From: TPA_inf: Saccharomyces
Taxonomy: Eukaryota
NCBI GenBank assembly: GCA_000146045.2
Contig: BK006935.2
Coordinates: 166,219 to 230,218 of the forward strand
Length of the DNA stretch: 64,000 nt
Direction of reading: 5' to 3'
Part shown: positions 29,968 to 54,279 of the stretch, piece after piece
Layout: each line of letters opens with the position of its first letter
Numbering within the stretch: the first letter of the stretch is position 1
Translations under genes and position numbers: made by a program
Notes under the pieces: model-generated
Told to the model about the DNA's origin: nothing
Seen by the model: the letters and a program-made list of their open reading frames with translations, nothing else
Databases searched by the model: none

Positions 29968-32249
29968 GCTGTGCAATGTAGTCACAATAACACTCGTTCA
30001 TTTGTATCCATTGCGAATGCCGGTACATCGGAAAACAGGATAGGACCTATTTAATTATATAGTATGAAGTATTCATAACTTCTTGAGGCATCAATACATC
30101 ATATTCCATGAGCTGCGTGGCATTCATACTCATTGATTTAAAGGTTTTTTATTTTCATGGAAAAGATTAACCGGGCTGAACGAAATATATTAAAGATGCT
30201 AAAACTTATGCTTTCATTGACTTTCAATAGTGTCCACTAACCAAAAAAAAAAACTACTCTAACAAGGGATCCCCATGGATTCAAAGCCGATACCAAACAG
30301 ATATTACTCTGCATAGAATTCAAAATATTATCCATATAAAGATGGGAAAGAATTCCAAAAGGAAAATTCTGCTCTAGAAGGTCACAAAACTAGTAAGAAG
30401 TTGACCCCCCTGCCATTAAAAAACGTTTTTAACAGCTCTAGCAATATTCTAATTTCGAAAGTGCTCTCAAAAGAATTTATTCATTTGCGAAAAAAAGAAT
30501 ATCTCAAAATTTTCTCGATCACGTACAACATCGTAGTATTTAAAGGATTATTAAGTCAACGAATAATTTCCACAAGAAAGGTACCTCTAGTTTTGGTGAT
30601 GAAGCAAGACAATAACTGGCAAGGGCTCTCACTAAATATCAACCCCTTTCAAATAAAAAAAGGATCATGGCTGGCAGCGCCCACAACAATTAAACTCTGT
30701 TACTATCAAAAAACATTGAGCCCAAGAATGGAATAAAATTTTCACTACACCTCGGACATGGATTTGTACATGTCCTATTATCCTGTAATTTTGACATATA
30801 CTGATATGGACCTCTTGTTTCGTATAAATCGCTATTTATTTCCCCAGATAACTAAAGAAAATCCTTCAACCCAGCGTTCTATATTACTATATTCTCAACC
30901 CGCCGTTTTCCTGCTGTGCGATAATTCTCATTCAATACTACCATTTCAAACCTAGAAAAGGGTGTCTTTATTAAAACTGTAAGAAAATTTTATCATGAAC
31001 TCTGATGAAAAGTCTTCGGAAGATCAACTTTTTGATTTTTCAAAAATGAAAGAAACTGTTGTCTCCATTTATGGCCTCATATCTGAAGGAAATTCGTCTG
31101 CTATTAGTCATACCACTATCTTCTTCTTGAAGCTGCATTTCAAGGTTGATTAGGAAGCATCTAACAATCATTCGATAGGGAAAACAGAAAGGCCGTTACA
31201 GTTTTTTAAAAATATCAATATCAAGAGAAAGAACTAGGGATATTGCAAAATCAAAACTTCTGATATTTGGTTTTACGTGAAAATTACCAACACTTAAACG
31301 TTAAAATTTCAAACTATCTACTGAAATATAAATTTTCAGTCAAAGAGATGAAACGATTATTTTCTTGAGTAATTCGTTGTCACAATTTAACAGAAAATTA
31401 CTGTTTTTTTCAAGTAGTTCACAAAGATACTCAAACTAAGATCATGGAGACGTCGGCAAGCAATTGATTGTTAGTGATTATCAAAACTCATTAGCTTCGG
31501 TAAAACTACATAGATTGAAAATCAGTAGTAACATACAACATGGTTTCCATGAGATTACAAACCGGCCAACCTAATGCTTTCAAAAATTCTTTGCTTACTG
31601 ATTCACGGTGGCCAAGAAGCATATAAATCTGTACTTTGCAGTAAAAAACAGATGGTATTGCTCATTCCCAGCGATTGCCAAATACGATTCATAACAGATT
31701 GACTTATCTTTTTCGAAAGCTCTATCATATGGCTTTGAGTAATAAGGTGAGATTTTTTTGGTGATGAAAATAAATACGGTGCCTTGATGCAAAATTTTTA
31801 GCCACAAACCTCTCTTCAGTCCCACATGATTCACCTGATTACGACTCACTATTTCATCTGTTCCATAAATCTCGGCTTTTTATATACAGAACATTAGACG
31901 ACGGGAAGAGAAAAACGTCAGTATAACCCACTTTTGTTCGTAAAAAAAGGTTATTCACTTCTACTCCGTACTAATCAATGACTTTAATGGTGAAACCATG
32001 ATGAGGAGAGTAACACGATGTAATTGTCATAAACTAATATTATCCCATATTAGTTTACTGACGGCTACAAGTGAGAATATATACTTTAAGAGTGTAACCA
32101 TACCAGTAATTGGGTTCCAAACAAGTTTGTGAGGCGCGTGTGCTGAAAGTAAAAAAAACTTACCTTAATAACGCAATTTCTGGCGAGGTTAAAATATTAA
32201 ATATAAAAAGCCTTCCAAGTAATTTTGCCCACTAAAATGTAACACAAAG

Positions 32250-32700
32250 CTCCACTGGTTCTCGGCTTCTTGTTCTTTCAAAAGGATCTTCAAATCCGCT
32301 TCCACTTAAGCAGCCTTCTGCTACGACTTCTTCTGAGACACTCGGTTTCGCGCGGGCACTTCTGCCCACCAAAAAAGTTTATTTTCCGGAAAGCTTATTT
32401 CTAAATAAACTTCTGAGGAATTTTTTTTCCGCAAATTTCCATGCAACGTCGAACTCTCAAATTCTCACGAGATTATTTGACTTGCTTTCCTTTCCCCCTT
32501 TTTCCACGCACTACGTCAATGCAAGTGATCCGCTTTTGAAGAAGCAAAAAATACTTCTTTCAGCTCGTACCGGCATTTTTATTATTTGTCAAAACTGGCG
32601 TTTGGAAACCAGCTCTTCACTTTTTCTTCGTGGTTTCTTCGTGGTTTTTTCGAGAGTTTTGTTTAAGCCCCTTTTATGGATGCATGAGAAAAAAAAAAAG
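32250..32700 (+). repeat. Copy A of a ~400-bp dispersed element (YAR060C-like sequence), ~4.5 kb upstream of FLO1
   Basis: Shares with copy C blocks such as GGCT(C)CTTCTTGTTCT..AAAGGATCTTCAAATCCGCTTCCAC.TA..AGC..T.CTGCTACGACTTCTTCTGA, CTCACGAGATT.TTTGAC and GAAGAAGCAAAA, in the same orientation. Confidence 0.7.
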
Positions 32701-33128
32701 GTTTGCTACAACCATCTCAGGTCTCTTGAAGGATAGTTCGAAGCTCGCCTGACCGTCTTTGGGTGACCAGGCTTGGTTTTCAGTTTTTTTTAGCTCATTG
32801 AGATATGTGATCCCGTTCCTAGATATTATGAGGGAATTTTATATATCAAATTGATTTTCACCGCGAATTCCAGAAGGATGGGCAAAAGAGGGCTTGTTGG
32901 CGTGGGAGGATGGTCGCGGCTGAAAATTTTCACCACGAGCAGTTTCTTGTGAGACATCCTAATACTTTTGCATTTTTACCAAGCAGTCGTCCGTAGCAAA
33001 GCATAGGTTAGTAATAACAATGTGCAAATAAAAAACTATCTTACAGGCAATTATTTTGTGGCAAAGCAAGGTCCATGTTTTCTTGAAAGGTAAGAAGTGG
33101 CTTTGGGACAGCTCATATAGACAGATTT

Positions 33129-33490: not shown

Positions 33491-36400
33491 AACACCTACT
33501 AATTGATGTTTACCAAGAACGCGAGTACAGTCATATATAGATGTAGTAGAGTTGAGATATTCTGAATCGGAAGTACGATATTTCAATTCCTATATTGCAA
33601 AAATTTATATATTTGGAGCTTCTTGAAAGAAAAAGTGTCCAACATCCTGCATGAAGTTTGATCACTTTAGCTGGTCCCATTCGAAGAACCTTTTTTTTTT
33701 TTTTTTTTTTTGAGATTCTTCATATTCTGTTATTAAATTTTTAGACTTTAATTTTTACTTTCTATGTAACGTTCACTCTTACCCTAAATATTAAACTATT
33801 TGATAAAATATTACACTGAAAGGTGTTACAACTTTTCCTAGACCAACCTTAATATAAACGTTACGATATAAAATAAACAGTAATTTTAAGATTCCATTGT
33901 TGAATGTGACACGTAACTCTAGGCCATACCTGGTTTAGTATTTTTTAAAAGAACTCTTGCTACAGCATATTTTACGTTTGCATAAAAATAAAAGAAAAGC
34001 TTCCTTATGAAACACTGGTTAAGAAAAGAAAATGGAGTGGTTACATACTCCAAAATAAATTACTCTTAATATCTGTTTATCCAATGAGGAGCAGATCTCA
34101 AAGATAATCAGACTTGTTATTGAAGCAATTGAAGTAAGTCTTCCATTGAAATCACGCTAATTATTAAGCAATATGGTGGATTAAACAACTCTGACGGGAC
34201 CGTACTACTTGATGAAAAGTTATATACAATATTGAATAACAGCATAATGCTGTATGATGTTGAGCGGAAGATTGTATAAAAATGTCCTTTTCTAAAATCA
34301 TGAAAAACGAACCCTTTAAAGTAATTTTGTAGCGAAATTTAACCTCACGAGTTCATGATCATAACTCGTTATCATTTTTGTAATATTGAATCGGTCTCTA
34401 TAGAGCCTCATGAGAAGATAGAGGACCCGAAATAATTCTCCCTTCAAACATTATGGCCAATAAGTGTCAGGAAGTGAAGCATTGACATGACAGCAGCACA
34501 TTAAAACTCTATTGAATATAAATACGATCCACGACATGTCGTTTACAAAGCGCTAAAAACTCATGAGCCAACTATTCCCTAAATTTCCAAGATCTATCAT
34601 ATATTTTTCCCTAATTTTCCAAGAGGAACCTCCATAAAATAATGCAGAAAAACATTTGTTTGATCTATTTTAAAAGGCATATCGCATGTTATAGTGAATC
34701 TGAAGATTGCTTCTCTCGTCAGTATTAATGCACTATATTACGTTTCAAATAATTCGTAGATTGTCTCAAGTTTTCAGTATATTTGCCTTCATGACCCACC
34801 GGTCCTCTTCCCTCAAGTGCTCAACGATGGGAGCTTCAGAAAAATCCAGCAGCATAGTTGAGTTCTGATTCTCTCCTTGGTAGTTTTTTCCTTTGGTGAT
34901 TTCGGATTCATAATGAAAATGTTTCGTATATTCTATGACTAAAGTTGTTATTGTTGTAAGTATTTCTGCTTCCTCTTGCAACAATTCCGCTCCCACTTAT
35001 AATGCACCGAGGTGAATTGGTCATCCTTACGAAAATACCCAGATAGAAATGGAGTAGTTGCGTGATCGTTTACTGCATCTTTTGCGCCTTTTAATCAATC
35101 TTGACGTGGATATCTTGTTTTGCTTGAACCACCACCTGTATTGCTGGTATAAATCACCATATTAACCATCGTTTTCAATCAACGCAACTTTTAGTGTATT
35201 GTCTGCAACATCTGATTTCCCTCTGGTAAGTCACCTAATCTAAAATCTCTATTTTGAATCCACGGAGACATACGTTTGAAAGATATAAAAGAGTTCATTG
35301 AAAAGTCTAGCGTCACAACTGACATTAAAATACTTAAATATGAACCAAAATTTTTTGGCTTTTATTTTCAATGCAATCATTATCTGCCTATACAGGAAAC
35401 GCTTTATTTGGCTCAATAATATGATCATGTTTGTCTGAAGTTGGCAATAAAAGAAACTAAGAAGAGCCACTAAACTTATTTTATGATATGGGAAACACAG
35501 AAAACACTCCAAAAATTTTGGTACAAGAACCTGAAAATAGAACAAAGAAAGAGGCGAGGTTTGGTACATCTAATTTACGTGACCTAGACGTTGCTCACCT
35601 TATGTTAATAGCTTATCAGAATTACAAGTAATTACTTGTAGGAACATCCTCTACTAGTGAATATGAAAGAGCAGAGGTTAGCTCCGTCTCAACCAATTTT
35701 GTACAAGTCGTTGAAAAGGACGGCTCTACTGTAGACAGGTCGATTCAAAGTCTGGTCTCAAAATAGAAGGTAAAATATTATTGAACAAAAGACCACTAAA
35801 AGGCTATGGTATGTCCAATAAGATGCAAAATAGACATTTCACTCGCTAATCGTTAGTGGGATTATATCTTACTATACTCCTTATCTCATTGAATGGCACT
35901 AGTCGATCGAGGAACAAAAAAGGATCGAACCGATTAGCACGGATTTCCTTAAGTAATTTAAATTACCAAAGAAGATCCACATCAGCAGTCGAATGTTCAA
36001 GATGCCGTAAGTTTAAAATCTTTCGTATCTTTCCCCGATCCTGTCTTTCATCAATGAACTTGAATATCAAGAGTGAAAAAAACTCATATGGCTTCTCTTG
36101 AAGAGTTAGAAAGATAGGCACATGCCAATTGTGTGCATAGCACTTACTACTCAACGATTTCACAACCTAGCATAATACGCGAAAAAAAAAGTGCATTTAT
36201 TTAGGTAAGTCTCATTACCTAAACGCCAGTTTGTTTCACGTAATTGGTAACGATGAGGGAACCGCAGTAGAAAAAACTTTCATTCACAAACGATTAAAGT
36301 GTTATGCTAGCCAGTTTCAGGCTTTTTGTTTTATGCAAGAGAACATTCGACTAGATGTCCAGTTAAGTGTGCGTCACTTTTCCTACGGTGCCTCGCACAT

Positions 36401-37184
36401 GAATGTTATCCGGCGCACGATACTTATCACCGAAAAACCTTATTCTACGGAAAACCTTATTTACATTAAAGTTGGAAAAATTTCCTCTTTTTCCTAATAA
36501 GGTGGAGCTTTTGGCTTCCAGTATGCTTTCACGGAATTATTTCTCATGTACATTTAGCTCCATTTCCAGTGCCTCCGATAGGGAGGCATCATGGTACTAC
36601 CGTGACGGAGAATACGTAGGCTGACTTTTTCGTCAGTTTGTTGTCCGTTTACAAAATTGGTGAATGAATTCTAGCCTTCCTCTGCTCATTAATTGCCCTC
36701 ACAAGAATTTGGAAGTGCGTAGAACAGGTAAAAGATTGTACTACAGAGGTATTGTGGAACCTTCTACAGTACTTCGGAATACACCTAAAAGGTTGTTGGA
36801 TGCTAAATTTAGCAAAAGTCTTTTTTAGCTCACTATTAGGCTTGTTAAAGTCTGAAATTGTTGAAAGGCACTCAAAAAGATAAATCAACAATCAGCATTA
36901 ACGGCACAGTTGAAAGAGTCACCCACTTGAAATTAGCTCGGTTATCAAATATAATTATCTCTGGTAAAGAGCTCTGCAGCAGGGTTAATCTATTCGCATA
37001 CTTACGCTGTAGGAACATTTTATTATTAGGATCCGACTACTGCCTACATATTTATTCGGAAGGCATGATGTCGAAAATTTTTGAGCTTATAAAAGGAACA
37101 TATTTCACTCTTGCTCGTTTGATGTAAGCTCTCTTCCGGGTTCTTATTTTTAATTCTTGTCACCAGTAAACAGAACATCCAAAA

Positions 37185-40100
37185 ATGACAATGCCTCATC
37201 GCTATATGTTTTTGGCAGTCTTTACACTTCTGGCACTAACTAGTGTGGCCTCAGGAGCCACAGAGGCGTGCTTACCAGCAGGCCAGAGGAAAAGTGGGAT
37301 GAATATAAATTTTTACCAGTATTCATTGAAAGATTCCTCCACATATTCGAATGCAGCATATATGGCTTATGGATATGCCTCAAAAACCAAACTAGGTTCT
37401 GTCGGAGGACAAACTGATATCTCGATTGATTATAATATTCCCTGTGTTAGTTCATCAGGCACATTTCCTTGTCCTCAAGAAGATTCCTATGGAAACTGGG
37501 GATGCAAAGGAATGGGTGCTTGTTCTAATAGTCAAGGAATTGCATACTGGAGTACTGATTTATTTGGTTTCTATACTACCCCAACAAACGTAACCCTAGA
37601 AATGACAGGTTATTTTTTACCACCACAGACGGGTTCTTACACATTCAAGTTTGCTACAGTTGACGACTCTGCAATTCTATCAGTAGGTGGTGCAACCGCG
37701 TTCAACTGTTGTGCTCAACAGCAACCGCCGATCACATCAACGAACTTTACCATTGACGGTATCAAGCCATGGGGTGGAAGTTTGCCACCTAATATCGAAG
37801 GAACCGTCTATATGTACGCTGGCTACTATTATCCAATGAAGGTTGTTTACTCGAACGCTGTTTCTTGGGGTACACTTCCAATTAGTGTGACACTTCCAGA
37901 TGGTACCACTGTAAGTGATGACTTCGAAGGGTACGTCTATTCCTTTGACGATGACCTAAGTCAATCTAACTGTACTGTCCCTGACCCTTCAAATTATGCT
38001 GTCAGTACCACTACAACTACAACGGAACCATGGACCGGTACTTTCACTTCTACATCTACTGAAATGACCACCGTCACCGGTACCAACGGCGTTCCAACTG
38101 ACGAAACCGTCATTGTCATCAGAACTCCAACAACTGCTAGCACCATCATAACTACAACTGAGCCATGGAACAGCACTTTTACCTCTACTTCTACCGAATT
38201 GACCACAGTCACTGGCACCAATGGTGTACGAACTGACGAAACCATCATTGTAATCAGAACACCAACAACAGCCACTACTGCCATAACTACAACTGAGCCA
38301 TGGAACAGCACTTTTACCTCTACTTCTACCGAATTGACCACAGTCACCGGTACCAATGGTTTGCCAACTGATGAGACCATCATTGTCATCAGAACACCAA
38401 CAACAGCCACTACTGCCATGACTACAACTCAGCCATGGAACGACACTTTTACCTCTACTTCTACCGAATTGACCACAGTCACCGGTACCAATGGTTTGCC
38501 AACTGATGAGACCATCATTGTCATCAGAACACCAACAACAGCCACTACTGCCATGACTACAACTCAGCCATGGAACGACACTTTTACCTCTACTTCTACC
38601 GAATTGACCACAGTCACCGGTACCAATGGTTTGCCAACTGATGAGACCATCATTGTCATCAGAACACCAACAACAGCCACTACTGCCATGACTACAACTC
38701 AGCCATGGAACGACACTTTTACCTCTACATCCACTGAAATCACCACCGTCACCGGTACCAATGGTTTGCCAACTGATGAGACCATCATTGTCATCAGAAC
38801 ACCAACAACAGCCACTACTGCCATGACTACACCTCAGCCATGGAACGACACTTTTACCTCTACATCCACTGAAATGACCACCGTCACCGGTACCAACGGT
38901 TTGCCAACTGATGAAACCATCATTGTCATCAGAACACCAACAACAGCCACTACTGCCATAACTACAACTGAGCCATGGAACAGCACTTTTACCTCTACAT
39001 CCACTGAAATGACCACCGTCACCGGTACCAACGGTTTGCCAACTGATGAAACCATCATTGTCATCAGAACACCAACAACAGCCACTACTGCCATAACTAC
39101 AACTCAGCCATGGAACGACACTTTTACCTCTACATCCACTGAAATGACCACCGTCACCGGTACCAACGGTTTGCCAACTGATGAAACCATCATTGTCATC
39201 AGAACACCAACAACAGCCACTACTGCCATGACTACAACTCAGCCATGGAACGACACTTTTACCTCTACATCCACTGAAATCACCACCGTCACCGGTACCA
39301 CCGGTTTGCCAACTGATGAGACCATCATTGTCATCAGAACACCAACAACAGCCACTACTGCCATGACTACAACTCAGCCATGGAACGACACTTTTACCTC
39401 TACATCCACTGAAATGACCACCGTCACCGGTACCAACGGCGTTCCAACTGACGAAACCGTCATTGTCATCAGAACTCCAACTAGTGAAGGTCTAATCAGC
39501 ACCACCACTGAACCATGGACTGGTACTTTCACCTCTACATCCACTGAGATGACCACCGTCACCGGTACTAACGGTCAACCAACTGACGAAACCGTGATTG
39601 TTATCAGAACTCCAACCAGTGAAGGTTTGGTTACAACCACCACTGAACCATGGACTGGTACTTTTACTTCTACATCTACTGAAATGACCACCATTACTGG
39701 AACCAACGGCGTTCCAACTGACGAAACCGTCATTGTCATCAGAACTCCAACCAGTGAAGGTCTAATCAGCACCACCACTGAACCATGGACTGGTACTTTT
39801 ACTTCTACATCTACTGAAATGACCACCATTACTGGAACCAATGGTCAACCAACTGACGAAACCGTTATTGTTATCAGAACTCCAACTAGTGAAGGTCTAA
39901 TCAGCACTACAACGGAACCATGGACCGGTACTTTCACTTCTACATCTACTGAAATGACGCACGTCACCGGTACCAACGGCGTTCCAACTGACGAAACCGT
40001 CATTGTCATCAGAACTCCAACCAGTGAAGGTCTAATCAGCACCACCACTGAACCATGGACTGGCACTTTCACTTCGACTTCCACTGAGGTTACCACCATC

Positions 40101-41798
40101 ACTGGAACCAACGGTCAACCAACTGACGAAACTGTGATTGTTATCAGAACTCCAACCAGTGAAGGTCTAATCAGCACCACCACTGAACCATGGACTGGTA
40201 CTTTCACTTCTACATCTACTGAAATGACCACCGTCACCGGTACTAACGGTCAACCAACTGACGAAACCGTGATTGTTATCAGAACTCCAACCAGTGAAGG
40301 TTTGGTTACAACCACCACTGAACCATGGACTGGTACTTTTACTTCGACTTCCACTGAAATGTCTACTGTCACTGGAACCAATGGCTTGCCAACTGATGAA
40401 ACTGTCATTGTTGTCAAAACTCCAACTACTGCCATCTCATCCAGTTTGTCATCATCATCTTCAGGACAAATCACCAGCTCTATCACGTCTTCGCGTCCAA
40501 TTATTACCCCATTCTATCCTAGCAATGGAACTTCTGTGATTTCTTCCTCAGTAATTTCTTCCTCAGTCACTTCTTCTCTATTCACTTCTTCTCCAGTCAT
40601 TTCTTCCTCAGTCATTTCTTCTTCTACAACAACCTCCACTTCTATATTTTCTGAATCATCTAAATCATCCGTCATTCCAACCAGTAGTTCCACCTCTGGT
40701 TCTTCTGAGAGCGAAACGAGTTCAGCTGGTTCTGTCTCTTCTTCCTCTTTTATCTCTTCTGAATCATCAAAATCTCCTACATATTCTTCTTCATCATTAC
40801 CACTTGTTACCAGTGCGACAACAAGCCAGGAAACTGCTTCTTCATTACCACCTGCTACCACTACAAAAACGAGCGAACAAACCACTTTGGTTACCGTGAC
40901 ATCCTGCGAGTCTCATGTGTGCACTGAATCCATCTCCCCTGCGATTGTTTCCACAGCTACTGTTACTGTTAGCGGCGTCACAACAGAGTATACCACATGG
41001 TGCCCTATTTCTACTACAGAGACAACAAAGCAAACCAAAGGGACAACAGAGCAAACCACAGAAACAACAAAACAAACCACGGTAGTTACAATTTCTTCTT
41101 GTGAATCTGACGTATGCTCTAAGACTGCTTCTCCAGCCATTGTATCTACAAGCACTGCTACTATTAACGGCGTTACTACAGAATACACAACATGGTGTCC
41201 TATTTCCACCACAGAATCGAGGCAACAAACAACGCTAGTTACTGTTACTTCCTGCGAATCTGGTGTGTGTTCCGAAACTGCTTCACCTGCCATTGTTTCG
41301 ACGGCCACGGCTACTGTGAATGATGTTGTTACGGTCTATCCTACATGGAGGCCACAGACTGCGAATGAAGAGTCTGTCAGCTCTAAAATGAACAGTGCTA
41401 CCGGTGAGACAACAACCAATACTTTAGCTGCTGAAACGACTACCAATACTGTAGCTGCTGAGACGATTACCAATACTGGAGCTGCTGAGACGAAAACAGT
41501 AGTCACCTCTTCGCTTTCAAGATCTAATCACGCTGAAACACAGACGGCTTCCGCGACCGATGTGATTGGTCACAGCAGTAGTGTTGTTTCTGTATCCGAA
41601 ACTGGCAACACCAAGAGTCTAACAAGTTCCGGGTTGAGTACTATGTCGCAACAGCCTCGTAGCACACCAGCAAGCAGCATGGTAGGATATAGTACAGCTT
41701 CTTTAGAAATTTCAACGTATGCTGGCAGTGCCAACAGCTTACTGGCCGGTAGTGGTTTAAGTGTCTTCATTGCGTCCTTATTGCTGGCAATTATTTAA
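37185..41798 (+). CDS. FLO1: Lectin-like flocculin, 1537 aa: N-terminal PA14/mannose-binding domain, 18 x 45-aa tandem repeats, Ser/Thr-rich stalk, GPI signal
   Basis: Signal peptide, PA14-type domain (...[29 protein letters not shown]...[34 protein letters not shown]...), a massive tandem array, and a C-terminal hydrophobic GPI-attachment tail. Confidence 0.95.
38016..40446 (+). repeat. 18 tandem copies of a 135-bp (45-aa) repeat inside FLO1, in near-identical sub-blocks
   Basis: Unit ~[44 protein letters not shown]. Two subtypes ([18 protein letters not shown] and [18 protein letters not shown]) each repeat several times, with long runs of 100% identical nucleotides. Confidence 0.9.
40890..41290 (+). 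repeat. Three imperfect ~50-aa repeats in the FLO1 C-terminal stalk ([46 protein letters not shown])
   Basis: Visible in the translation between residues ~1235 and ~1370. Ser-rich 21-bp-type repeats precede them at about 40540-40640. Confidence 0.8.
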
Positions 41799-44769
41799 TA
41801 AAATTCGCGTTCTTTTTACGTATCTGTGTATCTTTTCTTTGCTAATTATACGCTGACATGAATTATTTTTTAACTGTTTCTCCTCCATACTTTCAAATAT
41901 TCAAATTGACTAAATGATAATTCTTGCGCTTCTTATTTTGAAAAAGTAGATATGTGTATCATAAAGAAAACGTTATTATTATTGTCTTAGGCAACAAAAA
42001 TCCATGAAAAGAATTTTACCGTTATCGATATCATTGTATTTATTTTATTTATTTATTCAATTTTTTTTTTTTTGGTTTATATCCTGCAAACAACACTTCG
42101 AATTCAATTCGATATTTCATAAGTTACAACTAACACTTATAGAAACCGATGTATGAGTACTTATTATTAACGAGGAAAAATGCCCTATTTTCTTTAGCAA
42201 TTAATGAACCATCGCCAACTTTTGCTTTAACAATTATTGCCATTTTCAGCAGTACTAACGTAAGATCTAGTGTGGTTCGCTTAGGATGTTTTCGAGTAGA
42301 AATCTGCTGCACATGCCACACGCAGTACTTGAAACTTGAAATAATGGTGATAATTAGTTATTTAAAGTATGTTAATCTTCCTTGTTCTTTTATATTTATT
42401 TCGAATTCTTTTGCACTAGTATTTAAAATATCAGCAGAGGTGTAAAAGTGCACCAAAATTATTGTAAAACTACTTGCCCTAAAATTGATACTTCATACTT
42501 GACATATTCAAAAGGGGTCCAAGTATAGATGCATCAAAAAAAAAAATTATCCGATGATGAGCAAATGGTAGCTTTTCGTTCCCAGGAAGTGTAGTAGTTC
42601 CATGAAGTCTAATGAGACTTTGGAAAAAGGTTTGTCACGAGCACCTAACTATTGTATTTTGGAATTTTGATAAACTTCAAAACGGGAACGAAGTGTTAAA
42701 CTTAGATGCGGTTGATTTAAGCTTTAAAAGAGGAAAATAATGACTGATGATAAGAAGTCAACAACGATTCAAAGCAGGTGAATTTCCATTACGTTTCGCT
42801 TTTCAATTGAAAAAAATTTGGTGGTTATTCATTTCTTGCTTGACCTCTTTACTTTTTATACTTCTGTGATGAGAAGCAAGTTCGAGGATTTTACGATAAA
42901 GCCTACTGGTTATATTTGTATAAATTAGAACGTTGTCCTTATTTCTCTTTTCGAACAGTATCAAAATAAAGTTTTTGATTAGGGCCAGATTCTCTTCAAG
43001 GAAGAGATACCTCACGTCTGTAATATCTAAGAGCTAATGTTTCGATCGAACTTTCCTTTGCTTTTTTTCTGGATCTCATAATGTCCCACTGTATGTATGT
43101 GCCCTCGCACAGCTTTGCTCATCATAGACATTAATCATTGGTTGTACGATAAAAATATCGCAAAAATTATTCTAACGTTCAGATTAGATTCCGGCCATAT
43201 TTCTGACATTTGTTTTATTAATAAAAATTTGGCGAATGTTTTGATAACTTGATAACTGCTGATATTTCATTGTTGAAAAGGCATGATATTAGATGCACAA
43301 AGTATATTATAACTTATTATCAGAGATATAGGAACAAAAAAAAAGGGAAATTCATATCTATATGTGAAAATACCATTATTTCCTCTTCTATTTAATATAC
43401 TGTCCTTAATTTTCATATTACATTATCAACTTTTGCATTTCAGTGTCCATTAAATCTTGGGACCATTTTCTCAATCTTCATGTCGTGTTTTCACACCGTA
43501 TATAATATACTGGTAATATAAGTACTAGTCGATAGATCGCAGTTGAGTCTTATCCCAACAGTTAATGATTCACTGTGCTTTCTGTTGCTGTAGAATTTCT
43601 GAGGCATTGTCGCTCTCTTCTATGTGATGCTACAACGGAACTAGGCTTCTTATATATCGTGGTCCTACAAGATCTTGGTATCTCGTTTGCTTACTTTGAA
43701 GCTTCACTGATATATAGTATTTAAGCCACTTTCATGTTCATGGATAATCGTAATTGTACTACGCTGGTACCAGTTATGAACCCTATCAAATCATCATTGA
43801 ACACTGCTATTTTTAACTAATCAAGATGTGTATGCGGCGTACTTTATAATTTCACGACACTATTGAAAGCAAACTAAAAATCAAGTAAATACCTATCCAA
43901 GTTGCGGGCTCTGGATTTATGTGGCCTTAAATTTTCGACCTATGGTTCGCTATTCAATATGAGAAAACCAAAATTAGGTACAAGTACTGATTACGTCCGT
44001 GATTCGAAAAGCAGCGTTGAAAGATTACAAGATTTTGCGTGTCCAGGCCGACACTTAACTTTAAGGTCTCGACTTAGTAACATGAGTTGCCAAAAGTTTT
44101 TTTCTCCTATCTGAATATGGGGAACCGGAATTTGTCTTTGACCTGACTTTCAAATTGTTGCATATGTAAAAAAAAACAGAAGAAATATGATCTTCTTCTT
44201 CTAGCGATGCAAAAGGATTCATTACAAATCGTCGCAAAGGCCGACAAGTTGCAGTATATTCACATTGCTTATTTGAAGTATGTTTGTATACACATCGATA
44301 GTATTCATTAACACCACAACTGCTGTGTATACTATGTCAAACAGCATAATAAAGCCCGTCATTTTTGTACCCGCTCATTTCCAATAGGCATCTAAACTTA
44401 CAAATGTGGTACACTACTTCGAATTCATTAATCGATATTGAATGCTAAAAGTCTGCGATTTCTTCCTCAACGTTCAAAAATCTCATCCAAGGCATAATCC
44501 CACATATTGAAGATCGCTACCAATTGTTACGGGCGAACTGAGGTTTTGGAAATGAGCTTGTACTTAGTAAATTTCTCTTTGCTTGCATCTTTTTCTTCCA
44601 TGCCAAAAAATAAAAGATACTCATTTTAAAAGCGCAGCCATATTGACTAAGTAAGTAATCATAATACTATGAGTAATTTTTGAGTACTGTGCTCATTTAC
44701 TAGCTGCTTTTCTGAGAAAGATCCTCGATAATCAATTCCAGGTTAGTGGGGCCCTTCTACGGCTTCTTC

Positions 44770-45010
44770 TAACCAATTGTTCCCCGTGAGTTGCTTTCTC
44801 TGAAAACCTTATTATACATTAGAGTTATAAGAAAATTTTCTTTTTCCCGTAGATTAACCTGCAGTGCCGAACTTCTAGATGTCACACCAGACCGTTTGAC
44901 ACCGCCATTTTCCTTCCTTTTCGGAAAAATGTGCCGATAAATGGTAAGACGCGACGCCACTGCTACGAATATTACGCTTATGATGAAGCAAAAGGAAAAA
45001 GCAAGTTCCC
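44770..45010 (+). repeat. Copy B (partial) of the dispersed YAR060C-like element, 3 kb downstream of FLO1
   Basis: tttcccgtagattaacctgcagtgccgaa...cgccgataaatggtaagacgcgacg...tgatgaagcaaaaggaaaaag aligns with copy C tttcccgtagattgacttgcagcgtcaaaa...cgccgataaagaagtagtacaacag...tgatgaagcaaaagaggaagag. The minus-strand ORF 44769-44960 is a YAR060C-like fragment (LQVNLREKENFL against LQVNLRERRNFL). Confidence 0.7.
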
Positions 45011-45549
45011 CTTAAATTCGTATAACTGTTTCATCAATCTTTAGTTCTGGCATTTGAAAGTTAATTAAACTTTTCTTCGTGGTTTCTACAGGAGTTCTGC
45101 ATGTGCGTAATTCAAAGCCTGTGAAGGAAAAAGTATTGTCCTAAACAACGGTCGTAGAATACGTCAACTGTAGTTTAAAATATTTTCTGGCTCTACTCGG
45201 TGCGATAGGTCTGGCTCTTTTCTATTTACTTTTGTTTGGAGTTGTTGAGGCCGATACCCGTCTAGATGTAAATATGAAATAACAGTTCGAGGTTTTATTA
45301 CGAGAATGAAAAGGGTAATGGATTGGAGCATGTGTAAATGTCAATAGCAGAAAAAATTTACCGCAAATTGTTTCGTAGTCTTATCTTCATCGGACACTCA
45401 AGGGTTGCATAATTTTTACCCAAAGGAACAGTATACTTTTTTGATAAAAAAATCTTGTTACCTATACAGTATTGCAAGCATTTTCAGAAACTCGTCTTTT
45501 GAGTTCTAAATGCATCATACAACAACAACAACAATTTCTTATTACTGTG

Positions 45550-46600
45550 TCCTTTTGGGATTTTTCAGCCTTCCTAGCTTACCCAAAATAGCCTCTCAAG
45601 GTGAAAAAACCATGCCTGCAAGCGGATCTAAGGATGAGTAGCTAGATTACAATAAATCCTGAATTTTCTCTGAGTGTCAACTTTGTCATCGCTTGTTAAA
45701 GGGCTACTACGCTGAAAAAGAACCTGAACTCTGTTAATAGGTTGAAGATTTTATGACTTGGTATACTATTCCATACGGCTGCTCTCCTGATTGCGGTGGG
45801 TCATTGCTATAACAGTAAAATCAAGGAAGATAACAGGAAGAGTAACTTTAGTACAATAAATCTGTTGTCTTCCCGAGGATTATAATTGTTCGGCTTTCAC
45901 ACTAAGTTGAAAAGGGGGACTCAGGAAATGACAGGGTACGTTTTAGTTTCTCCAAATAAATCTTCCACACCCAGCTTCAATGTGGTAAACGGGGGAAAGT
46001 TGATTAATTGATGTTGGCACTTATATTTAACTGATGTAGAGAAGAACAACATACTACTAACGTCACAGTCAATTGTGCCAGTTTTCCAATCAAGTATTTC
46101 GAGATAATGTAAAAGTAATTGATATATGTTCGTACTGGTTTCCCAATTTCCGGGAAAAACTATGTACATGGGTGCAATTCCTTGTGGTTATTTCCTTTTA
46201 GGTTATATTGCCAACCACATCATAGTACTATTTGCGGTCACTTCAGAAGATATGTTTGCTCCTTTGATCATGATATAGACCAGGCCAACTGTACCGCTTC
46301 AGGCTTCAAAGCATTAGGAATAAGCACCACTATTACACAACCATAGAGCTACTCTTACTGTCACGTAGGTAAAACACTTGCTACTACACACACTCGTAGT
46401 GACTCATCTGACTATATTGCCGGTTGTTAAGAGGCACCAGTTAAGCACGCCATCAAGGGTACCGAATAATCTCTTCTGTATCAAGTATTCTACCTTTATG
46501 TCTGACCCACGTATTATGTGGAGCAATTACGTATTTTTCTCATATCAGCTTTGTTTTTACTCAACTTTGATATCTTAGAGAAACAGATCTTGATGTTACA
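45550..46600 (+). pseudogene. Heavily decayed FLO-family relic: N-terminal PA14-type domain plus one repeat and the start of the Ser-rich region
   Basis: The plus strand from ~45900 aligns with the FLO1 N-terminal coding region: ggaaatgacagggtacgttttagtttctccaaataaatcttccacacc against agaaatgacaggttattttttaccaccacagacgggttcttacacattc. The 46119-46346 ORF encodes YVCSFDHDIDQANCT...STTITQP (FLO1: [15 protein letters not shown]...STTTTTTEP). Region 46480-46560 resembles the FLO1/YAR062W segment encoding [14 protein letters not shown]. Many stops and frameshifts. Confidence 0.6.
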
Positions 46601-49600: not shown

Positions 49601-50938
49601 TCGTTTTTTACTGGTGCTGAATTTCTTATTTTCCACAGATAACAATCATGTTAATAAATTATGCACTGTGCTAATTTTTCAATTAAGGTTCTATTACCCC
49701 TCTATCACCGACAGAAACACGTAATGATGTGTTATTTCCATTATAATTCCGTAAGAATGGTGTTTATAGGTAGTCTAAAGAACGTGCATCAGAGAAGAAT
49801 AACTGTCGCAAAAAATGACTATTCTTTACCTTTTCAAACTTAACTGAGATAGTTATCTCTATTATTACCAGTGGCACACACGCGAACTACATCACTCACC
49901 ACTATCGTCTTAGGAACTCAAGATTTTATAGTAATGCAGCCGAAGACATTCAAGTCCTGAGAGAAAATGTAGACATTTTAAGAAAAGTACCGGAAATAAA
50001 GCACATGTAAAGCATTGAGCTCTGTACTCTATAAAAATTAGCTGCATTCAAACAACAATGTTTGAAATTTTTGCAAAAGTTATTGAAAAAGATTGCTGTT
50101 TTCAGCCTTGTTCAGATCATGTCTCAAAAATGAGAAACTGGAACTCTCATAATCAGTACCTCGTATTTTTTTTTCCTTATAGTTTCGTTATTAAAAATTT
50201 TTTTGCTGCTAATTTAAGTACGCTTTTGGTCATAAATGCTACCCACCAGTTGAATTATTGACATGATTAAAATACATTTCAGAACTTTACGGATTAAAAA
50301 CTTTAAAGAACCTTTCAATCCATGTTGCTGGAGGGCCATGAATCCACGAATTACAGCAAAAGAAGACAGTAACTACTTAGGGTTCAATAATTACTTGCAT
50401 AAACACACACTAACAACCAAATCGTACTAAAATTTGCAATTAACAAAACTCCATCATATCACGCTGAATTATGTAGGGCTTCTTAATGCAATAGGTTGCC
50501 TGAATTTTGCTTACTCGTGCTGCCGGGAACACTTAGCAGTTGGGAGGCCGTTTCTCCCATATATTTCATAATTTTCTGTCCTTCTTAGAGTAGGATGCTG
50601 AAAATCAAAAGAAGACCGTCAATAGGACCAGATTTTGTGGGTCAATTTTGGGCCAGACACATGATACCCTAGGAAGTTTAACGGTATACAACTCAAGGAC
50701 GAGGAGTATTCGGAAACTACCGGTTTTTAACAAGCTGCAAATTTCCAGTAGCTGTTTTGGTTGCGACTACGGATAAAAATTCATACTTTAGGAAGTGAAG
50801 CAAGATAAAAAATCATGCTGCATCCTAATTCGTGAAGTTTGTTAGGAATATTATTGTAAACAAGGAACCGTTTCAGTAAACTTGCTCTCTACTCTTCTAA
50901 GCTGTAATTTAAAAAAAGCGATAAAACAATGATTTTGA

Positions 50939-51274
50939 TTATCTGCAACTTCTGGAAACTCGAGATACTACGCTAGACGAGATACCTATTAATTGTTTTC
51001 CTAAAAAATCAGGAACAGTTCCTGGCAGCTTTCGGCTCCTTCTTGTTCTGGAAAGGATCTTCAAATCCGCTTCCACGTAGCAGTCCTCGCTACGACTTCT
51101 TCTGAAGTATTTTGATTTTTGGCTGCATTTACCTTTTATTGCCGAAAATCTTATTTTCCAAGAAAAAAGCTTATTTTGCATTAAGTTTAAAAAATTTCTT
51201 CTTTCCCGTAGATTGACTTGCAGCGTCAAAATTCCGGAGGCCTCACGAGATTTTTTGACATCGGTTTTTGACAT
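50939..51274 (-). CDS. YAR060C: Annotated small ORF of unknown function (111 aa within a 164-aa track ORF); probably non-coding and coincident with repeat copy C
   Basis: An ORF is present, but it lies entirely within a three-copy nucleotide repeat whose other copies do not preserve the frame. It is Lys/Arg/Ser-rich with no recognisable domain. Confidence 0.3.
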   Translation of the reverse strand: MSKTDVKKSREASGILTLQVNLRERRNFLNLMQNKLFSWKIRFSAIKGKCSQKSKYFRRSRSEDCYVEADLKILSRTRRSRKLPGTVPDFLGKQLIGISSSVVSRVSRSCR

Positions 51275-51440
51275 CTCTTTTTCCTTCCTTTTTCTTTCTT
51301 TTCCTGCGCACGCCGATAAAGAAGTAGTACAACAGACAACGTCAAAATGATCCTCTTGTGATGAAGCAAAAGAGGAAGAGTATACTCCTTTTCCGCTTGT
51401 ACAAATATTTTTTTTGATAATAAAATTTGGCACTTCAGAG
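51040..51440 (+). repeat. Copy C of the dispersed ~400-bp element, ~500 bp upstream of the YAR061W/YAR062W FLO pseudogene
   Basis: See copies A and B for the alignments. Same orientation in all three. Confidence 0.7.
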
Positions 51441-51906
51441 CTTATCGTATCTTCTCCCGGAGTTCCTCAAGACTTATACTTCAGCCCGTTTAGGAATGCA
51501 TAAAAGCAAATAGGATTCGTTACAACTGCTGCAGGACTCTTTAGGACTGCATCAAGGTAAGCCTCGCTGCACCTAAACGCAAAATGTGGTTGTAACCTTT
51601 TTAATTTTTTTCTTGAACTTGTTGAGTCGTAATAAATCGTTTCTGGGAAGTGGAAGGTAATAATGTAATGGAATCGGCGTTACTCGCATGTGCAGATATC
51701 AGCGACAAAAAGTGTTGTAGGGACGTTTCGATACCAAAATTTCCTAAATACAGCGCAGGAACATCACTACGCTAAACAAATCGTAGCGCATACATCTGAT
51801 CGAAAAAAGACAGTTCCCAAAACAATGACATATGAAGAGACCAGCATCAAAATTTTCATCATTAACAGCATGGCTAAAAGTTATTGTTTAATATACCCAT
51901 ACCTGA

Positions 51907-53110
51907 TTGACGAACCAAGAAATGCCTTATCACTATTTATTTTTGGCACTCTTCACCTACCTGGCCACGTCCAATGTTGTTTCAGGAAGTACACAAGCAT
52001 GCCTGCCAGTGGGCCCGAGGAAAAATGGGATGAATGTCAACTTTTATAAATACTCATTACTGGATTCAACAACGTATTCCTACCCGCAATATATGACTTC
52101 TGGATATGCCTCGAATTGGAATTAGGTTCCGTTGGCGGACAGACGGATTTCTCAATTGACTACGATCTTTCTTGTGTTATCTCTTCAGGAACTTTTAAAT
52201 GTGCTCAATCAGATGCTTATGGAAACTGGGGATGCAGAGGTCATAGTGAATGTTCAAAATAGCCAAGAAAGACCTATTGGAGTACTGATTTACTTGGTTT
52301 CTTACTATCCCAAAAAACGCTACTCTAGAAATGACAGGTTACTTTTTACCACCACAAACAAGTTCTTACACGTTCAGGTTTGCTAAGGTCGATGACTCTG
52401 CAATTCTATCAGTCGGTGGTAACGTTGCGTTCGAATGTTGTGCACAAGAACAACCTCCAATTACATCGACGGATTTTACAATCAATGGTATTAAGCCATG
52501 GCAAGGAAGTTTGCCTGATAACATCGGAGGGACTGTCTACATGTATGCAGGCTACTATTATCCGCTGAAGGTTGTTTACTCCAATGCCGTTTCCTGGGGC
52601 ACGCTTCCAATTAGCGTGGAATTGCCTGATGGTACTACTGTTAGTGATGACTTTGAAGGGTACGTTTACTCTTTTGACGATGATTTAAGTCAGTCAAATT
52701 GTACTATCCCTGATCCTTCAAAACATACTACTAGCATCGTCACAACTACTACCGAACTGTGGACTGGTACTTTTACTTCTACATCTACTGAAATGACCAC
52801 CGTCACCGGTACTAATGGTCAACCAACTGACGAAACCGTTATTGTTGCCAAAGCTCCAACCACTGCCACCTCATCCAGTTTGTCATCATCTTCTTCAGAA
52901 CAAATCACCAGCTCTATCACGTCTTAGCATCCAATTATTACTCCATTCTATCGCAGCAATGGAACTTCTGTAGTTTCTTCCTCAGTCATGTCTTCCTCGG
53001 TCATTTCTTCTTCTGCAACGACCTCCACTTCTATATTCTCTGAATCATCTAAATCATCCGTCATTCAAACCAGTAGTTCCACCTCTGGTTCTTCTGAGAG
53101 CGAAACAATC
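51907..53110 (+). pseudogene. YAR062W: FLO1-like flocculin pseudogene (annotated pieces YAR061W and YAR062W): N-terminal domain with frameshifts/stops, repeat array collapsed to one unit, abrupt 3' truncation
   Basis: MTNQEMPYHYLFLALFTYLATSNVVSGSTQACLPVGPRKNGMNVNFYKYSL... (51907-52125) matches the FLO1 signal peptide and N-terminus and then loses frame. 52331-52927 encodes [30 protein letters not shown]...[34 protein letters not shown]..., then a single 45-aa repeat and [18 protein letters not shown]. Homology to the FLO1 Ser-rich region continues to ~53110 and then stops. Confidence 0.85.
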
Positions 53111-53979
53111 TTAGTGATTGCTGGCATGTCATTAGCGACAAGACGCTTATTACCGTAGTAGCCCCCCAAGGCAAACATCTCTTTATCAGTAATATCCAAA
53201 GCTGTTCAACTTCTCGAATTGGCCCAGGAAAAGAGCATTGGGGCGGCAACTAACTCTGGCATACTTACAGTTTCTGCTCTTGACAGCGCTAAAAAAGGGC
53301 TTGTTTTGTAATGCCCGGTTCGCAATTCTACAAGTACCACGCACTAGCTGCTAAAAGTGTCTAACCTTGCGAACAAATCTGGACTTTCTTATGAGAATCC
53401 CATCGTCAAGAAACAAAATTATACAGACAGGCGTAAATGTAGCTCGTAAGCGCCTGATCAAGTAAGCCAAATGCGCTAACTTGAGGAAATATAGCCATCT
53501 AAATCTCTGCAACATGCCAATTCGCACGTGACTTGAAACTATGGAAAGTGTCTAGAAGATTACCAAGAACCACGTTATTTGAGAGAGGATGGCAAGGTGA
53601 CGACAATCACACCAAGACCACATTTTGGGTGCGCCTGGAAGCAAGACCTGAGAAACTGGGCCAAAATATTCAAACCAAGCATAAGATAGTTGGAGGTAGG
53701 AATACACTATCTAATCTGTGCTGATGAAATGCTGGCGAAAACGGGCGATGTAGTGGTACAGAAGGTGCCGGTTATCCGTTTGTCCGTTTTTCTTCATTTT
53801 TTTTTTGTTTTTCCCTTTTGTCTTTTGCACCGCTTATATATGGGTATGAAACAAGTTCAAGAATTTATAATGGAACCCAAAGGTTCAGTCTTTGTAGTTC
53901 GAGCGACATTGCGCGTTTCCTTAGAAAACGCTGGAAAGATATTCTTTAACGAGACGGAGTAATTCTCGTCAGGAATAGG

Positions 53980-54279
53980 ATGTTGATTGATTTTTGCTGT
54001 AGTTATATAGCAGGGACCCACGGAAGAGAGCGAGCGCCTTCTTTCACAGGGACTTTTGTCAGCCACGTCTCCGGGGAAAACAATTGCCGTCCGCGTCGCA
54101 GTGAGATTACGCAGCCGTGCGCTTCAGGGACAGAAAAGAAGCATTTCGCGGCTACGGAGAAACCGTGCACTAACTCTCTCGAGGGTAGCCGCAAAGATTT
54201 CTTGTCTCTTCCATTAGGACATAGCTATCTTTTTCTTTTCTGTTTTTGGCGTATGATCTGTTCTGAGCCAAAGTTATAG
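53980..54279 (+). CDS. YAR064W: Small ORF of unknown function (99 aa), weak coding evidence
   Basis: An ORF exists with an ATG start, but there is no domain, no homology I can recognise, and its composition is like the flanks. Confidence 0.25.
   Translation: MLIDFCCSYIAGTHGRERAPSFTGTFVSHVSGENNCRPRRSEITQPCASGTEKKHFAATEKPCTNSLEGSRKDFLSLPLGHSYLFLFCFWRMICSEPKL

What the first reader, a model, noticed from the sequence alone, without database searches (positions are those of the whole stretch)
44770..46600. Unannotated third FLO-type unit: a YAR060C-like element followed by a heavily decayed flocculin relic
About 500 bp 3' of repeat copy B, roughly 850-1050 bp of DNA aligns with the FLO1/YAR062W N-terminal coding region and then with the collapsed repeat / Ser-rich junction seen in YAR062W. 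The same arrangement recurs at 51040-53110 (copy C followed by YAR061W/YAR062W). In 5'-to-3' order the arm therefore carries three tandemly oriented FLO-type units in graded decay: FLO1 (intact), this relic, and YAR061W/YAR062W. None of the ORF-track ORFs here covers the relic except the fragment 46119-46346. It looks like an older tandem duplication of an element-plus-FLO-pseudogene module that has not, to my knowledge, been described as a pseudogene.
Basis: seen in the sequence. Interest (0 to 1): 0.62.

Follow-up and report, generated by a model that had tools for sequence, protein, structure and literature searches.

The report
Decayed FLO flocculin gene relic, already catalogued
Between the yeast flocculation gene FLO1 and the known pseudogene YAR061W/YAR062W lies the dead front half of a third flocculin gene with its upstream flank; it is real, but it is an ordinary subtelomeric gene relic that a 2010 pseudogene catalogue already lists.

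Summary
Window 44607-46420 is collinear with the YAR060C/YAR061W/YAR062W unit (nhmmer E=8.7e-39) and with the FLO1 5' end (E=8.4e-16). A frameshift-tolerant alignment places FLO1 residues 2-334 on 45531-46503, with a score of 218 against 49±7 for shuffled DNA. The alignment is convincing only to about 46365. The unit has two parts: a ~900-bp copy of the FLO 5' flank (44607-45509) and a relic of the N-terminal lectin domain (45510 to ~46420). The relic has at least 3 stop codons and roughly 17 frameshifts.
- **Collapsed repeat / Ser-rich junction:** 46340-47000, which covers the claimed 46421-46600, scores at null level.
- **Older duplication:** the four 5'-flank copies in the window are about equally diverged. 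The excess divergence of the relic is confined to coding sequence, which fits early loss of constraint.
- **Not previously described:** Lafontaine & Dujon 2010 (PMC2876123, Table S1) list SACE0Ap9, chrI 212096-212535 W, best match YAR050W (FLO1). This converts to window 45887-46326. They also list a mirror relic on the left arm.

The whole 9.1-kb spacer is ~99% identical in 10 other S. cerevisiae loci, one on a contig of chromosome VIII size. The finding is ordinary and already known, so interest is low.

The parts
44607..45509 (+). Copy B of the ~0.9-kb FLO 5' flank (promoter region). It contains the 'YAR060C-like' block 44803-44904.
   Evidence: nhmmer against unit C starts at 44708 (E 8.7e-39). 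nhmmer against copy Z at 32145-32947 covers 44606-45375 (E 8.6e-18). blastn aligns 44803-44904 to 51165-51263 at 75% identity. The antisense ORF 44769-44960 shares only 19/33 residues with YAR060C and is truncated.
45510..45641 (+). Retained ATG and hydrophobic, signal-peptide-like start of the relic (43-aa ORF MHHTTTTTISYYCVLLGFFSLPSLPKIAS...).
   Evidence: ORF list. It aligns to FLO1 aa 2-38 in the frameshift-aware alignment. On its own the profile hit is not significant (E 7.3).
45510..46420 (+). Relic of the flocculin N-terminal (PA14/GLEYA-type) lectin domain. It has at least 3 in-frame stops and about 17 frameshifts against FLO1, and the Ca-binding Asp-Asp pair is lost (VDD becomes VNG).
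   Evidence: It is catalogued as SACE0Ap9, which converts to window 45887-46326.
45886..46008 (+). Best-preserved segment 1 (FLO1 aa 126-166, includes LFGF...EMTGY).
   Evidence: tblastn E 0.007. Family HMM E 2.4e-4, profile positions 126-161.
46215..46337 (+). Best-preserved segment 2 (FLO1 aa 238-278, includes YVxSFDxDxxQxNCT). It lies inside ORF 46119-46346.
   Evidence: tblastn E 3e-5. Family HMM E 2.2e-6, profile positions 237-279.
46421..46600 (.). Tail of the reported interval. It has no significant homology to FLO repeats or the Ser-rich region and should not be counted as part of the relic.
   Evidence: Frameshift-aware alignments of the FLO1 repeat, the P0003 tail and the FLO1 Ser-rich region against 46340-47000 score 25-34. 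Null means are 28-34. nhmmer finds nothing.
51001..53125 (+). Unit C: 5'-flank copy (51001-51921, overlaps YAR060C on the minus strand) plus the YAR061W/YAR062W collapsed FLO pseudogene. This is the comparator unit.
   Evidence: nhmmer A against C, 36310-38099 to 51024-52828, E 2e-168. tblastn of FLO1. The 3' end aligns 52738-53125 to FLO1 40304-40736.
36310..41798 (+). Unit A: 5' flank (36310-37184) plus intact FLO1 (37185-41798, 1537 aa).
32146..32947 (+). Copy Z: a fourth copy of the FLO 5' flank with no FLO coding relic after it. It is followed at once by a duplicated SWH1 3' fragment (33110-33529).
   Evidence: nhmmer against C E 3.8e-33 and against B E 2.7e-18; tblastn of FLO1 on 28000-36300 is negative. 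The SWH1 fragment is 77% identical to 29598-29868.

Best explanation
The interval is the non-functional remnant of a third FLO1/FLO5/FLO9-type flocculin gene. It sat in a head-to-tail array with FLO1 and the YAR061W/YAR062W gene inside a subtelomeric block.

Shown here: a ~0.9-kb FLO 5' flank and the ~0.9-kb N-terminal lectin-domain coding region survive, in the same order and orientation as in the two neighbouring units. The reading frame is destroyed by several stops and many frameshifts.

Inferred:
- The unit arose by local segmental (tandem) duplication that carried the promoter flank with it.
- It lost function early and has drifted without constraint since. That is why its coding part is far more diverged than its neighbours while its flank is not.
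- Its repeat and C-terminal parts were deleted or have decayed beyond recognition.
- The whole spacer, relic included, was later copied between chromosome ends by subtelomeric recombination.

It most likely does nothing today.
For: - **Homology and collinearity:** (E down to 8.7e-39; alignment score 218 against a null of 49±7).
- **Disabling lesions:** 3 stops and about 17 frameshifts. Only short ORFs of 82 aa or less remain.
- **Clade:** the relic scores best against FLO1/5/9-type N-terminal domains (190-234) and lower against FLO10-type (153-164). It falls inside Saccharomyces flocculins relative to a Z. rouxii outgroup.
- **Relaxed constraint rather than greater age:** in coding columns the relic has 224 unique changes against 30-47 for the other copies, while the 5' flanks are star-like at 48-59% identity.
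- **Fixed and copied with the block:** the entire 9.1-kb FLO-to-YAR060C spacer is about 99% identical in 10 other S. cerevisiae loci. These include a contig of chromosome VIII size and both ends of one chromosome I. Variable columns are no rarer in the relic unit than in the distal spacer around it.
- **Independent catalogue entry:** SACE0Ap9, with a matching relic SACE0Ap6 between FLO9 and YAL065C on the left arm.
Against: - Pfam PA14/GLEYA models do not detect the reconstructed peptide. Family assignment therefore rests on direct comparison with Saccharomyces flocculins.
- No trace of FLO repeats, C-terminal region or 3' flank follows the relic. It cannot be shown that a complete gene ever stood here.
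- No orthologous relic or intact gene was seen at the one S. eubayanus and one S. uvarum FLO locus examined.
- The frameshift count depends on the alignment. Lafontaine & Dujon count 5 over a shorter span.
Confidence: 0.88

Rival explanations
1. This was a partial duplication that was never a gene. Only the promoter flank and the 5' third of a FLO gene were copied into this position, with a breakpoint at or near the start of the repeats. On this view nothing was 'lost' afterwards.
For: - Homology stops at about 46365-46420, exactly where the 45-aa repeats begin in FLO1. Nothing FLO-like follows.
- The same arm holds a clear partial duplication: copy Z of the flank is joined to a SWH1 3' fragment with no FLO coding sequence.
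Against: - Repeat-mediated deletion gives the same end point. The neighbouring unit C shows just such a collapse.
- After this much decay (about 50-58% nucleotide identity), a low-complexity Ser/Thr-rich tail would be the first part to become unrecognisable.
- The catalogue places a different gene relic (YMR316W-like) about 400 bp downstream. That is compatible with either history.
Confidence: 0.2
2. The resemblance is compositional or due to chance, and there is no FLO homology.
For: - Pfam domain models give no hit.
- Plain blastn finds only a 102-bp match to unit C.
- Gap-permissive global alignments give similar percent identities for shuffled DNA.
Against: - nhmmer E 8.7e-39 and 8.4e-16.
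- The two tblastn hits are collinear to within 7 nt over 330 nt.
- The frameshift-aware score lies 23 SD above shuffles and above every other spacer segment.
- The global alignment scores are 433-471 against about 33±13 for shuffles.
- The family HMM picks the same two fragments out of 443.
Confidence: 0.01
3. The unit, or its 5'-flank copy, is kept because it still works, for example as a regulatory or chromatin element, a non-coding RNA promoter, or a small-ORF gene.
For: - Four copies of the flank share about the same 5' boundary and some well-kept blocks, such as TTTCCCGTAGATTAAC and GATGAAGCAAAAG.
- The spacer is nearly invariant among strains.
Against: - The flank copies are only 48-59% identical, with no grouping. 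An exact run of about 14 nt is expected by chance in about 1600 columns at 58% identity (my own calculation).
- The low within-species diversity is shared by the whole distal spacer and is not specific to the unit.
- The YAR060C-like ORF is not preserved.
- The 82-aa antisense ORF has no homologue below 94% identity in 5.8 billion proteins.
Confidence: 0.04

Closest known systems
SACE0Ap9 in Lafontaine & Dujon 2010, BMC Genomics 11:260 (PMC2876123), Table S1
   Same: It is the same locus. SACE0Ap9 lies at chrI 212096-212535 W, which is window 45887-46326 using the 166209 offset derived from their FLO1 and YAR061W coordinates. Its best match is YAR050W (FLO1), family GL3C3528, with 3 stops and 5 frameshifts.
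   Different: The catalogue entry covers only the 440-bp core (relative length 0.09). Here the relic is traced 5' to its ATG at 45510 and to a ~900-bp copy of the FLO promoter flank. I found no discussion of the three-unit arrangement in the text passages I searched. The twin on a contig of chromosome VIII size (L003, 99% identical) is not in their table.
YAR061W/YAR062W (and, from memory, YHR213W and YAL065C): the recognised FLO pseudogenes next to FLO1, FLO5 and FLO9
   Same: It has the same parent clade, the same orientation, the same kind of 5' flank and the same subtelomeric block. PMC5345705 cites these three as the known FLO pseudogenes.
   Different: YAR061W/YAR062W is about 77% identical to FLO1 at the nucleotide level with few indels. 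It still has one repeat and part of the Ser-rich region. The relic is about 50-60% identical with dozens of indels and keeps no repeat.
Tandem gene array no. 49 (FLO1 + YAR062W) and no. 45 (YAL065C + FLO9) of Despons et al. 2010, BMC Genomics 11:56 (PMC2822764)
   Same: That paper describes birth-and-death evolution of tandem FLO copies on both arms of chromosome I. The relic is a middle member of array 49.
   Different: Their list names only two members per array. The relic is not listed there.
REMYFR054C (REMFLO13) gene remnant, 'Core gene set of the species S. cerevisiae' preprint (PMC12157680)
   Same: It is another flocculin gene remnant with numerous stops and frameshifts lying in a large gene-free gap.
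   Different: REMFLO13 is on chromosome VI in the central region and spans about 3.9 kb. It has intact orthologues in other Saccharomyces species. No intact orthologue of the present relic was found.

Membership tests
FLO1/FLO5/FLO9-type flocculin gene | Homology to the N-terminal PA14/GLEYA lectin domain | tested here: met
   Direct comparison with FLO1 and 16 family members is positive. The generic Pfam PA14/GLEYA models give no hit on the reconstructed peptide.
FLO1/FLO5/FLO9-type flocculin gene | Uninterrupted open reading frame | tested here: not met
   There are at least 3 in-frame stops and about 17 frameshifts. The longest same-strand ORF is 75 aa.
FLO1/FLO5/FLO9-type flocculin gene | Central array of 45-aa Ser/Thr-rich repeats | tested here: not met
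   nhmmer of the FLO1 repeats against 46300-50950 gives no hit. Protein/DNA alignment scores are at null level.
FLO1/FLO5/FLO9-type flocculin gene | C-terminal Ser-rich / GPI-anchor region and 3' flank | tested here: not met
   nhmmer of FLO1 40300-44650 and of C 52700-54900 against 46300-50950 gives only hits with E above 4.
FLO1/FLO5/FLO9-type flocculin gene | Ca-binding Asp-Asp pair of the lectin site (VDD in FLO1; its role is stated from memory of the Flo5 structure work) | tested here: not met
   In the alignment FLO1 'ATVDDSAIL' pairs with relic 'NVVNGGKLI'.
FLO1/FLO5/FLO9-type flocculin gene | N-terminal secretion signal | tested here: inconclusive
   An ATG at 45510 is followed by a hydrophobic stretch aligned to the FLO1 signal region. 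No signal-peptide predictor was available.
Gene relic / pseudogene in the sense of Lafontaine et al. | Recognisable similarity to a functional paralogue together with multiple disabling mutations and no ORF | tested here: met
   It is listed as SACE0Ap9.
Tandem gene array with relic (Despons et al. 2010) | Paralogous copies in the same orientation, adjacent on the chromosome, with shared flanks | tested here: met
   Units A, B and C are all on the + strand. Each has a ~0.9-kb homologous 5' flank with about the same 5' boundary. The published catalogue places relics of two other genes between the units, so the array is interleaved.

The most novel reading that the evidence does not exclude
The four diverged copies of the ~0.9-kb FLO 5' flank (32146-32947, 36310-37184, 44607-45509, 51001-51921) are not all debris. 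On this reading, the copies at the relic and at YAR060C are retained as working regulatory or chromatin elements that influence FLO1 silencing or switching. Examples would be binding platforms for FLO regulators or promoters of non-coding transcripts.
Probability: 0.04. Interest if true: 0.45.

Novelty: already known. Interest (0 to 1): 0.13.

Why it matters
It matters little beyond tidy annotation. None of the 10 NCBI assemblies I looked at calls a gene over the relic. To my knowledge it is also not a named feature in the reference annotation, although its core is in a published pseudogene catalogue. The locus documents birth-and-death turnover of the subtelomeric flocculin family. At least three FLO units once stood in tandem on this block, and one died early enough to be almost unrecognisable. 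The relic also explains about 1.8 kb of an otherwise empty 9-kb gap. Finally, it is a reminder that short ORFs here (46119-46346, and 45921-46169 on the minus strand) are by-products of a dead gene.

Tried and rejected
- **Plain blastn (word 7)** found only the 102-bp YAR060C-like block. Profile-based nhmmer was needed.
- **Global pairwise alignments.** With permissive gap costs, percent identities were no better than for shuffled DNA. With free end gaps the shuffle baseline was not comparable. I used only the alignment scores from these, and shared ungapped columns of multiple alignments for distances.
- **Pfam scan** of the reconstructed peptide and of the raw ORF fragments gave nothing.
- **FLO repeats, C-terminus or 3' flank downstream of the relic:** nothing found.
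- **Relics of the S. eubayanus amidohydrolase and short-chain dehydrogenase genes in the window:** nothing found.
- **Search for the relic in other species.** I used the 82-aa antisense ORF, which is present in the protein collection. Only S. cerevisiae-level clusters at 99% and 94% came back. The one S. eubayanus and one S. uvarum FLO locus fetched show no second or third unit.
- **Check of the catalogue's YMR316W-like relic** with a 69-aa fragment (47135-47341) against 1.84 billion proteins. The only hit was a repetitive junk ORF, so that relic is not independently verified.
- **Bacterial promoter/terminator scan.** Counts were at shuffle level and the scan is irrelevant to yeast.
- **Papers not held:** Bussey et al. 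1995 and Lafontaine et al. 2004.
- **NJ tree.** It places the relic as a long branch outside the crown group. I treat this as long-branch placement, not as evidence of great age.

Full report
**Setting**

The window carries a 1537-aa ORF at 37185-41798 whose product is FLO1. A collapsed FLO copy lies at 51922-53125, corresponding to YAR061W/YAR062W. An antisense 111-aa ORF at 50939-51274 corresponds to YAR060C. This is the right end of S. cerevisiae chromosome I. The finding concerns 44770-46600, inside the 9.1-kb gene-poor spacer between FLO1 and YAR060C.

Yes. Five independent tests agree.

- tblastn of FLO1 against 42000-51000 returns two hits: aa 126-166 at 45886-46008 (39% identity, E 0.007) and aa 238-278 at 46215-46337 (41%, E 3e-5). 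They are in different frames. Their spacing (329 nt) matches the spacing in FLO1 (336 nt) to within 7 nt.
- nhmmer aligns the YAR060C-YAR062W unit (51044-52840) to 44708-46421 in one collinear alignment, E 8.7e-39, 58% identity over 1621 aligned columns. It aligns FLO1 37173-38050 to 45513-46361, E 8.4e-16.
- A frameshift-tolerant protein-to-DNA alignment that I wrote places FLO1 aa 2-334 on 45531-46503 with a score of 218. Sixty dinucleotide-preserving shuffles give 48.9±7.4 (max 68). The reverse complement and ten other spacer segments give 36-67.
- A profile built from 16 Saccharomyces FLO N-terminal domains was searched against all 443 stop-to-stop fragments of the spacer in six frames. 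It picks 46119-46343 (E 2e-6, profile positions 237-279) and 45886-46008 (E 2e-4, positions 126-161) as its only significant hits.
- Plain blastn sees only a 102-bp block, 44803-44904 against 51165-51263 at 75% identity.

**Anatomy**

The unit has two parts.

- **5' flank, 44607-45509.** This is a copy of the ~0.9-kb sequence that precedes both FLO1 (36310-37184) and YAR061W (51001-51921, where YAR060C lies antisense). The 'element' is therefore the FLO 5' flank, not an independent repeat. The YAR060C-like ORF is not preserved: it is 63 aa against 111 aa, with 19/33 identities over the shared block.
- **Coding relic, 45510 to about 46365-46420.** It begins with an ATG and a hydrophobic, signal-like stretch (43-aa ORF) and covers the whole N-terminal lectin domain. 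Against FLO1 it shows 110/345 identical positions, 3 in-frame stops and about 17 frameshifts. The frameshift count depends on the alignment. The VDD motif of FLO1 is VNG in the relic.

Beyond 46365-46420 nothing is detectable. The FLO1 repeat, the tail of an intact YAR061/62-type protein (P0003) and the FLO1 Ser-rich region all score at null level on 46340-47000. nhmmer with FLO1 repeats, 3' coding sequence, 3' flank and the 3' part of unit C finds nothing in 46300-50950.

**A fourth flank copy**

A further copy of the 5' flank (Z) lies at 32146-32947 (E 3.8e-33 against C, 2.7e-18 against B) with no FLO coding relic after it. It is followed directly by a 77%-identical duplicate of the last ~390 bp of SWH1 (33110-33529 against 29580-30027). 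This looks like an old local tandem duplication of the segment from the SWH1 3' end to the FLO promoter. In S. eubayanus chromosome I a single FLO gene starts about 3 kb after SWH1. That is where copy Z sits in S. cerevisiae.

**Which flocculin, and how old?**

The relic scores best against FLO1/5/9-type N-terminal domains (190-234; the best is P0003, an intact YAR061/62-like protein of other strains). It scores lower against FLO10-type proteins (153-164). In a neighbour-joining tree it falls within Saccharomyces flocculins relative to Z. rouxii, but as a long basal branch. I read that placement as a long-branch effect.

The claim of an 'older duplication' can be tested with site patterns.

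| Region | Shared ungapped columns | Pairwise identity | Informative patterns | Unique changes |
|---|---|---|---|---|
| 5' flanks (Z, A, B, C) | 529 | 48-59% for all six pairs | 30/26/25 | A 70, B 64, Z 45, C 31 |
| Coding (S. eubayanus, A, B, C) | 791 | B about 50% to each; the others 73-77% to each other | 30/24/20 | B 224; the others 30-47 |

The flanks give a star-like pattern, and B's terminal branch is no longer than A's. The excess decay of B is confined to what used to be coding sequence. This is what early loss of constraint predicts. It does not require B to be older than the A/C split. All of these duplications are old, because flank distances are near saturation.

**Distribution**

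The YAR060C protein was used to fetch ten other S. cerevisiae loci. They include a 568-kb contig of chromosome VIII size and both ends of one strain's chromosome I. All carry the entire 9.1-kb spacer at about 99% identity with the same spacing. Variable columns number 19 in the 1.9-kb unit and are similarly sparse across the distal spacer. No gene is called over the relic in any of these assemblies. The 82-aa antisense ORF (45921-46169) is in the protein collection but has no relative below 94% identity. The S. eubayanus chromosome I locus and one S. uvarum FLO locus show no second or third unit. I therefore could not establish presence or absence in other species.

**Is it known?**

Yes.

- Lafontaine & Dujon 2010 (PMC2876123), Table S1, list SACE0Ap9: Sace0A 212096-212535, W strand, best match YAR050W, family GL3C3528, relative length 0.09, 3 stops, 5 frameshifts.
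- Their coordinate system places FLO1 at 203394-208007 and SACE0Ap11 (YAR061W/062W) at 218132. This gives an offset of 166209, so SACE0Ap9 is window 45887-46326, exactly the two best-preserved segments.
- The same table lists SACE0Ap7 (SWH1 fragment, about window 33030-33473), SACE0Ap8 (YAL064W-like, about 43939-44257, minus strand) and SACE0Ap10 (YMR316W-like, about 46839-47470).
- On the left arm it lists SACE0Ap6 (FLO-like, 19572-20030 C) and SACE0Ap5 (YMR316W-like). These lie between FLO9 (24001-27969) and YAL065C (11566-11952). That mirrors the order seen on the right arm.
- Despons et al. 2010 (PMC2822764) list FLO1 + YAR062W as tandem gene array 49.
- A recent preprint describes a comparable flocculin remnant, REMFLO13, on chromosome VI.

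What this analysis adds is modest:
- the relic extends 5' to its start codon and carries its own promoter flank;
- there is a fourth, flank-only copy;
- the twin on the chromosome VIII-size contig, absent from the catalogue, exists at 99% identity;
- the 'older duplication' reading is not needed.

I could not verify the YMR316W-like neighbour with my own search.

**Mechanism**

- Shown: three same-strand FLO units with homologous 5' flanks. The middle one has a destroyed frame, no repeat or C-terminal part, and is fixed in all copies of the block examined.
- Inferred: local segmental duplication produced a FLO array. The middle copy lost function early, drifted neutrally, and lost or never had its 3' two-thirds. 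The block then spread between chromosome ends by subtelomeric recombination.
- At 50-60% identity the relic is too diverged to serve as a recombination partner for live FLO genes. This last point is an inference from general knowledge of homology requirements.
- The main rival is a partial duplication that was never a complete gene. It cannot be excluded (about 0.2).
- Chance similarity is excluded.
- A surviving regulatory role for the flank copies is unsupported (about 0.04).

**Verdict**

The feature is real and was correctly recognised by eye. It is an ordinary subtelomeric gene relic of a well-known kind and is already in a published catalogue. Interest is low.

Noticed in passing
window 32146-32947 and 33110-33529: There is a fourth copy of the FLO 5' flank with no FLO coding relic after it. 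It is followed at once by a 77%-identical duplicate of the SWH1 3' end (compare 29580-30027). This looks like an old tandem duplication of the segment from the SWH1 3' end to the FLO promoter. The SWH1 fragment is catalogued as SACE0Ap7; I did not find the flank copy mentioned.
   Followed up: partly
window 43220-43562 (minus strand): A decayed solo delta (Ty1/Ty2) LTR lies between FLO1 and the relic unit. It is roughly 70% identical by eye to LTRs at 23203-23713 and 16922-17256 and ends with TTATCCCAACA.
   Followed up: partly
window 41799-44800: Of the 138 variable columns between this copy of the spacer and 10 other S. cerevisiae loci, 80 are private to this copy. Variable columns as a whole cluster in the FLO1-proximal 3 kb, while the distal 6 kb is nearly invariant. 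I did not map the private ones separately. The cause is unknown; it could be a different haplotype or gene-conversion history next to FLO1.
   Followed up: no
window 46126-46278: The 50-aa ORF inside the relic is stored in NCBI as 'hypothetical protein GCM10010217_73690 [Streptomyces tubercidicus]'. This is most likely yeast DNA contaminating a bacterial assembly.
   Followed up: no
window 42827-43143 vs 53796-54145: There is weak collinear similarity (E 5e-4) between DNA about 1 kb downstream of FLO1 and DNA about 0.7 kb downstream of the YAR062W unit. This suggests units A and C also share a remnant of their 3' flank. No counterpart was found after the relic.
   Followed up: partly
window ~46839-47470 and ~43939-44257: Lafontaine & Dujon list a YMR316W (DIA1)-like relic just after the FLO relic and a YAL064W-like relic just before the unit. 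My single check of the first (a 69-aa fragment against 1.84 billion proteins) gave only a junk repetitive hit, so neither is verified here.
   Followed up: partly
L011 (S. eubayanus chrI) 10001-12666 and 13993-17459: S. eubayanus has one FLO gene about 3 kb after SWH1. The called ORF is 345 aa, but FLO1-like repeat and C-terminal DNA continue after it. It is followed by amidohydrolase and short-chain dehydrogenase genes that leave no trace in the S. cerevisiae window.
   Followed up: partly
L007/L008 (GCA_947370345.1 contig CANCCP010000001.1) and L002: In one strain the whole block from FLO through the spacer, YAR060C and YAR062W to PHO sits at both ends of the same ~221-kb contig. In another strain it sits at the start of a 270-kb contig. 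This shows the block moves between chromosome ends.
   Followed up: no
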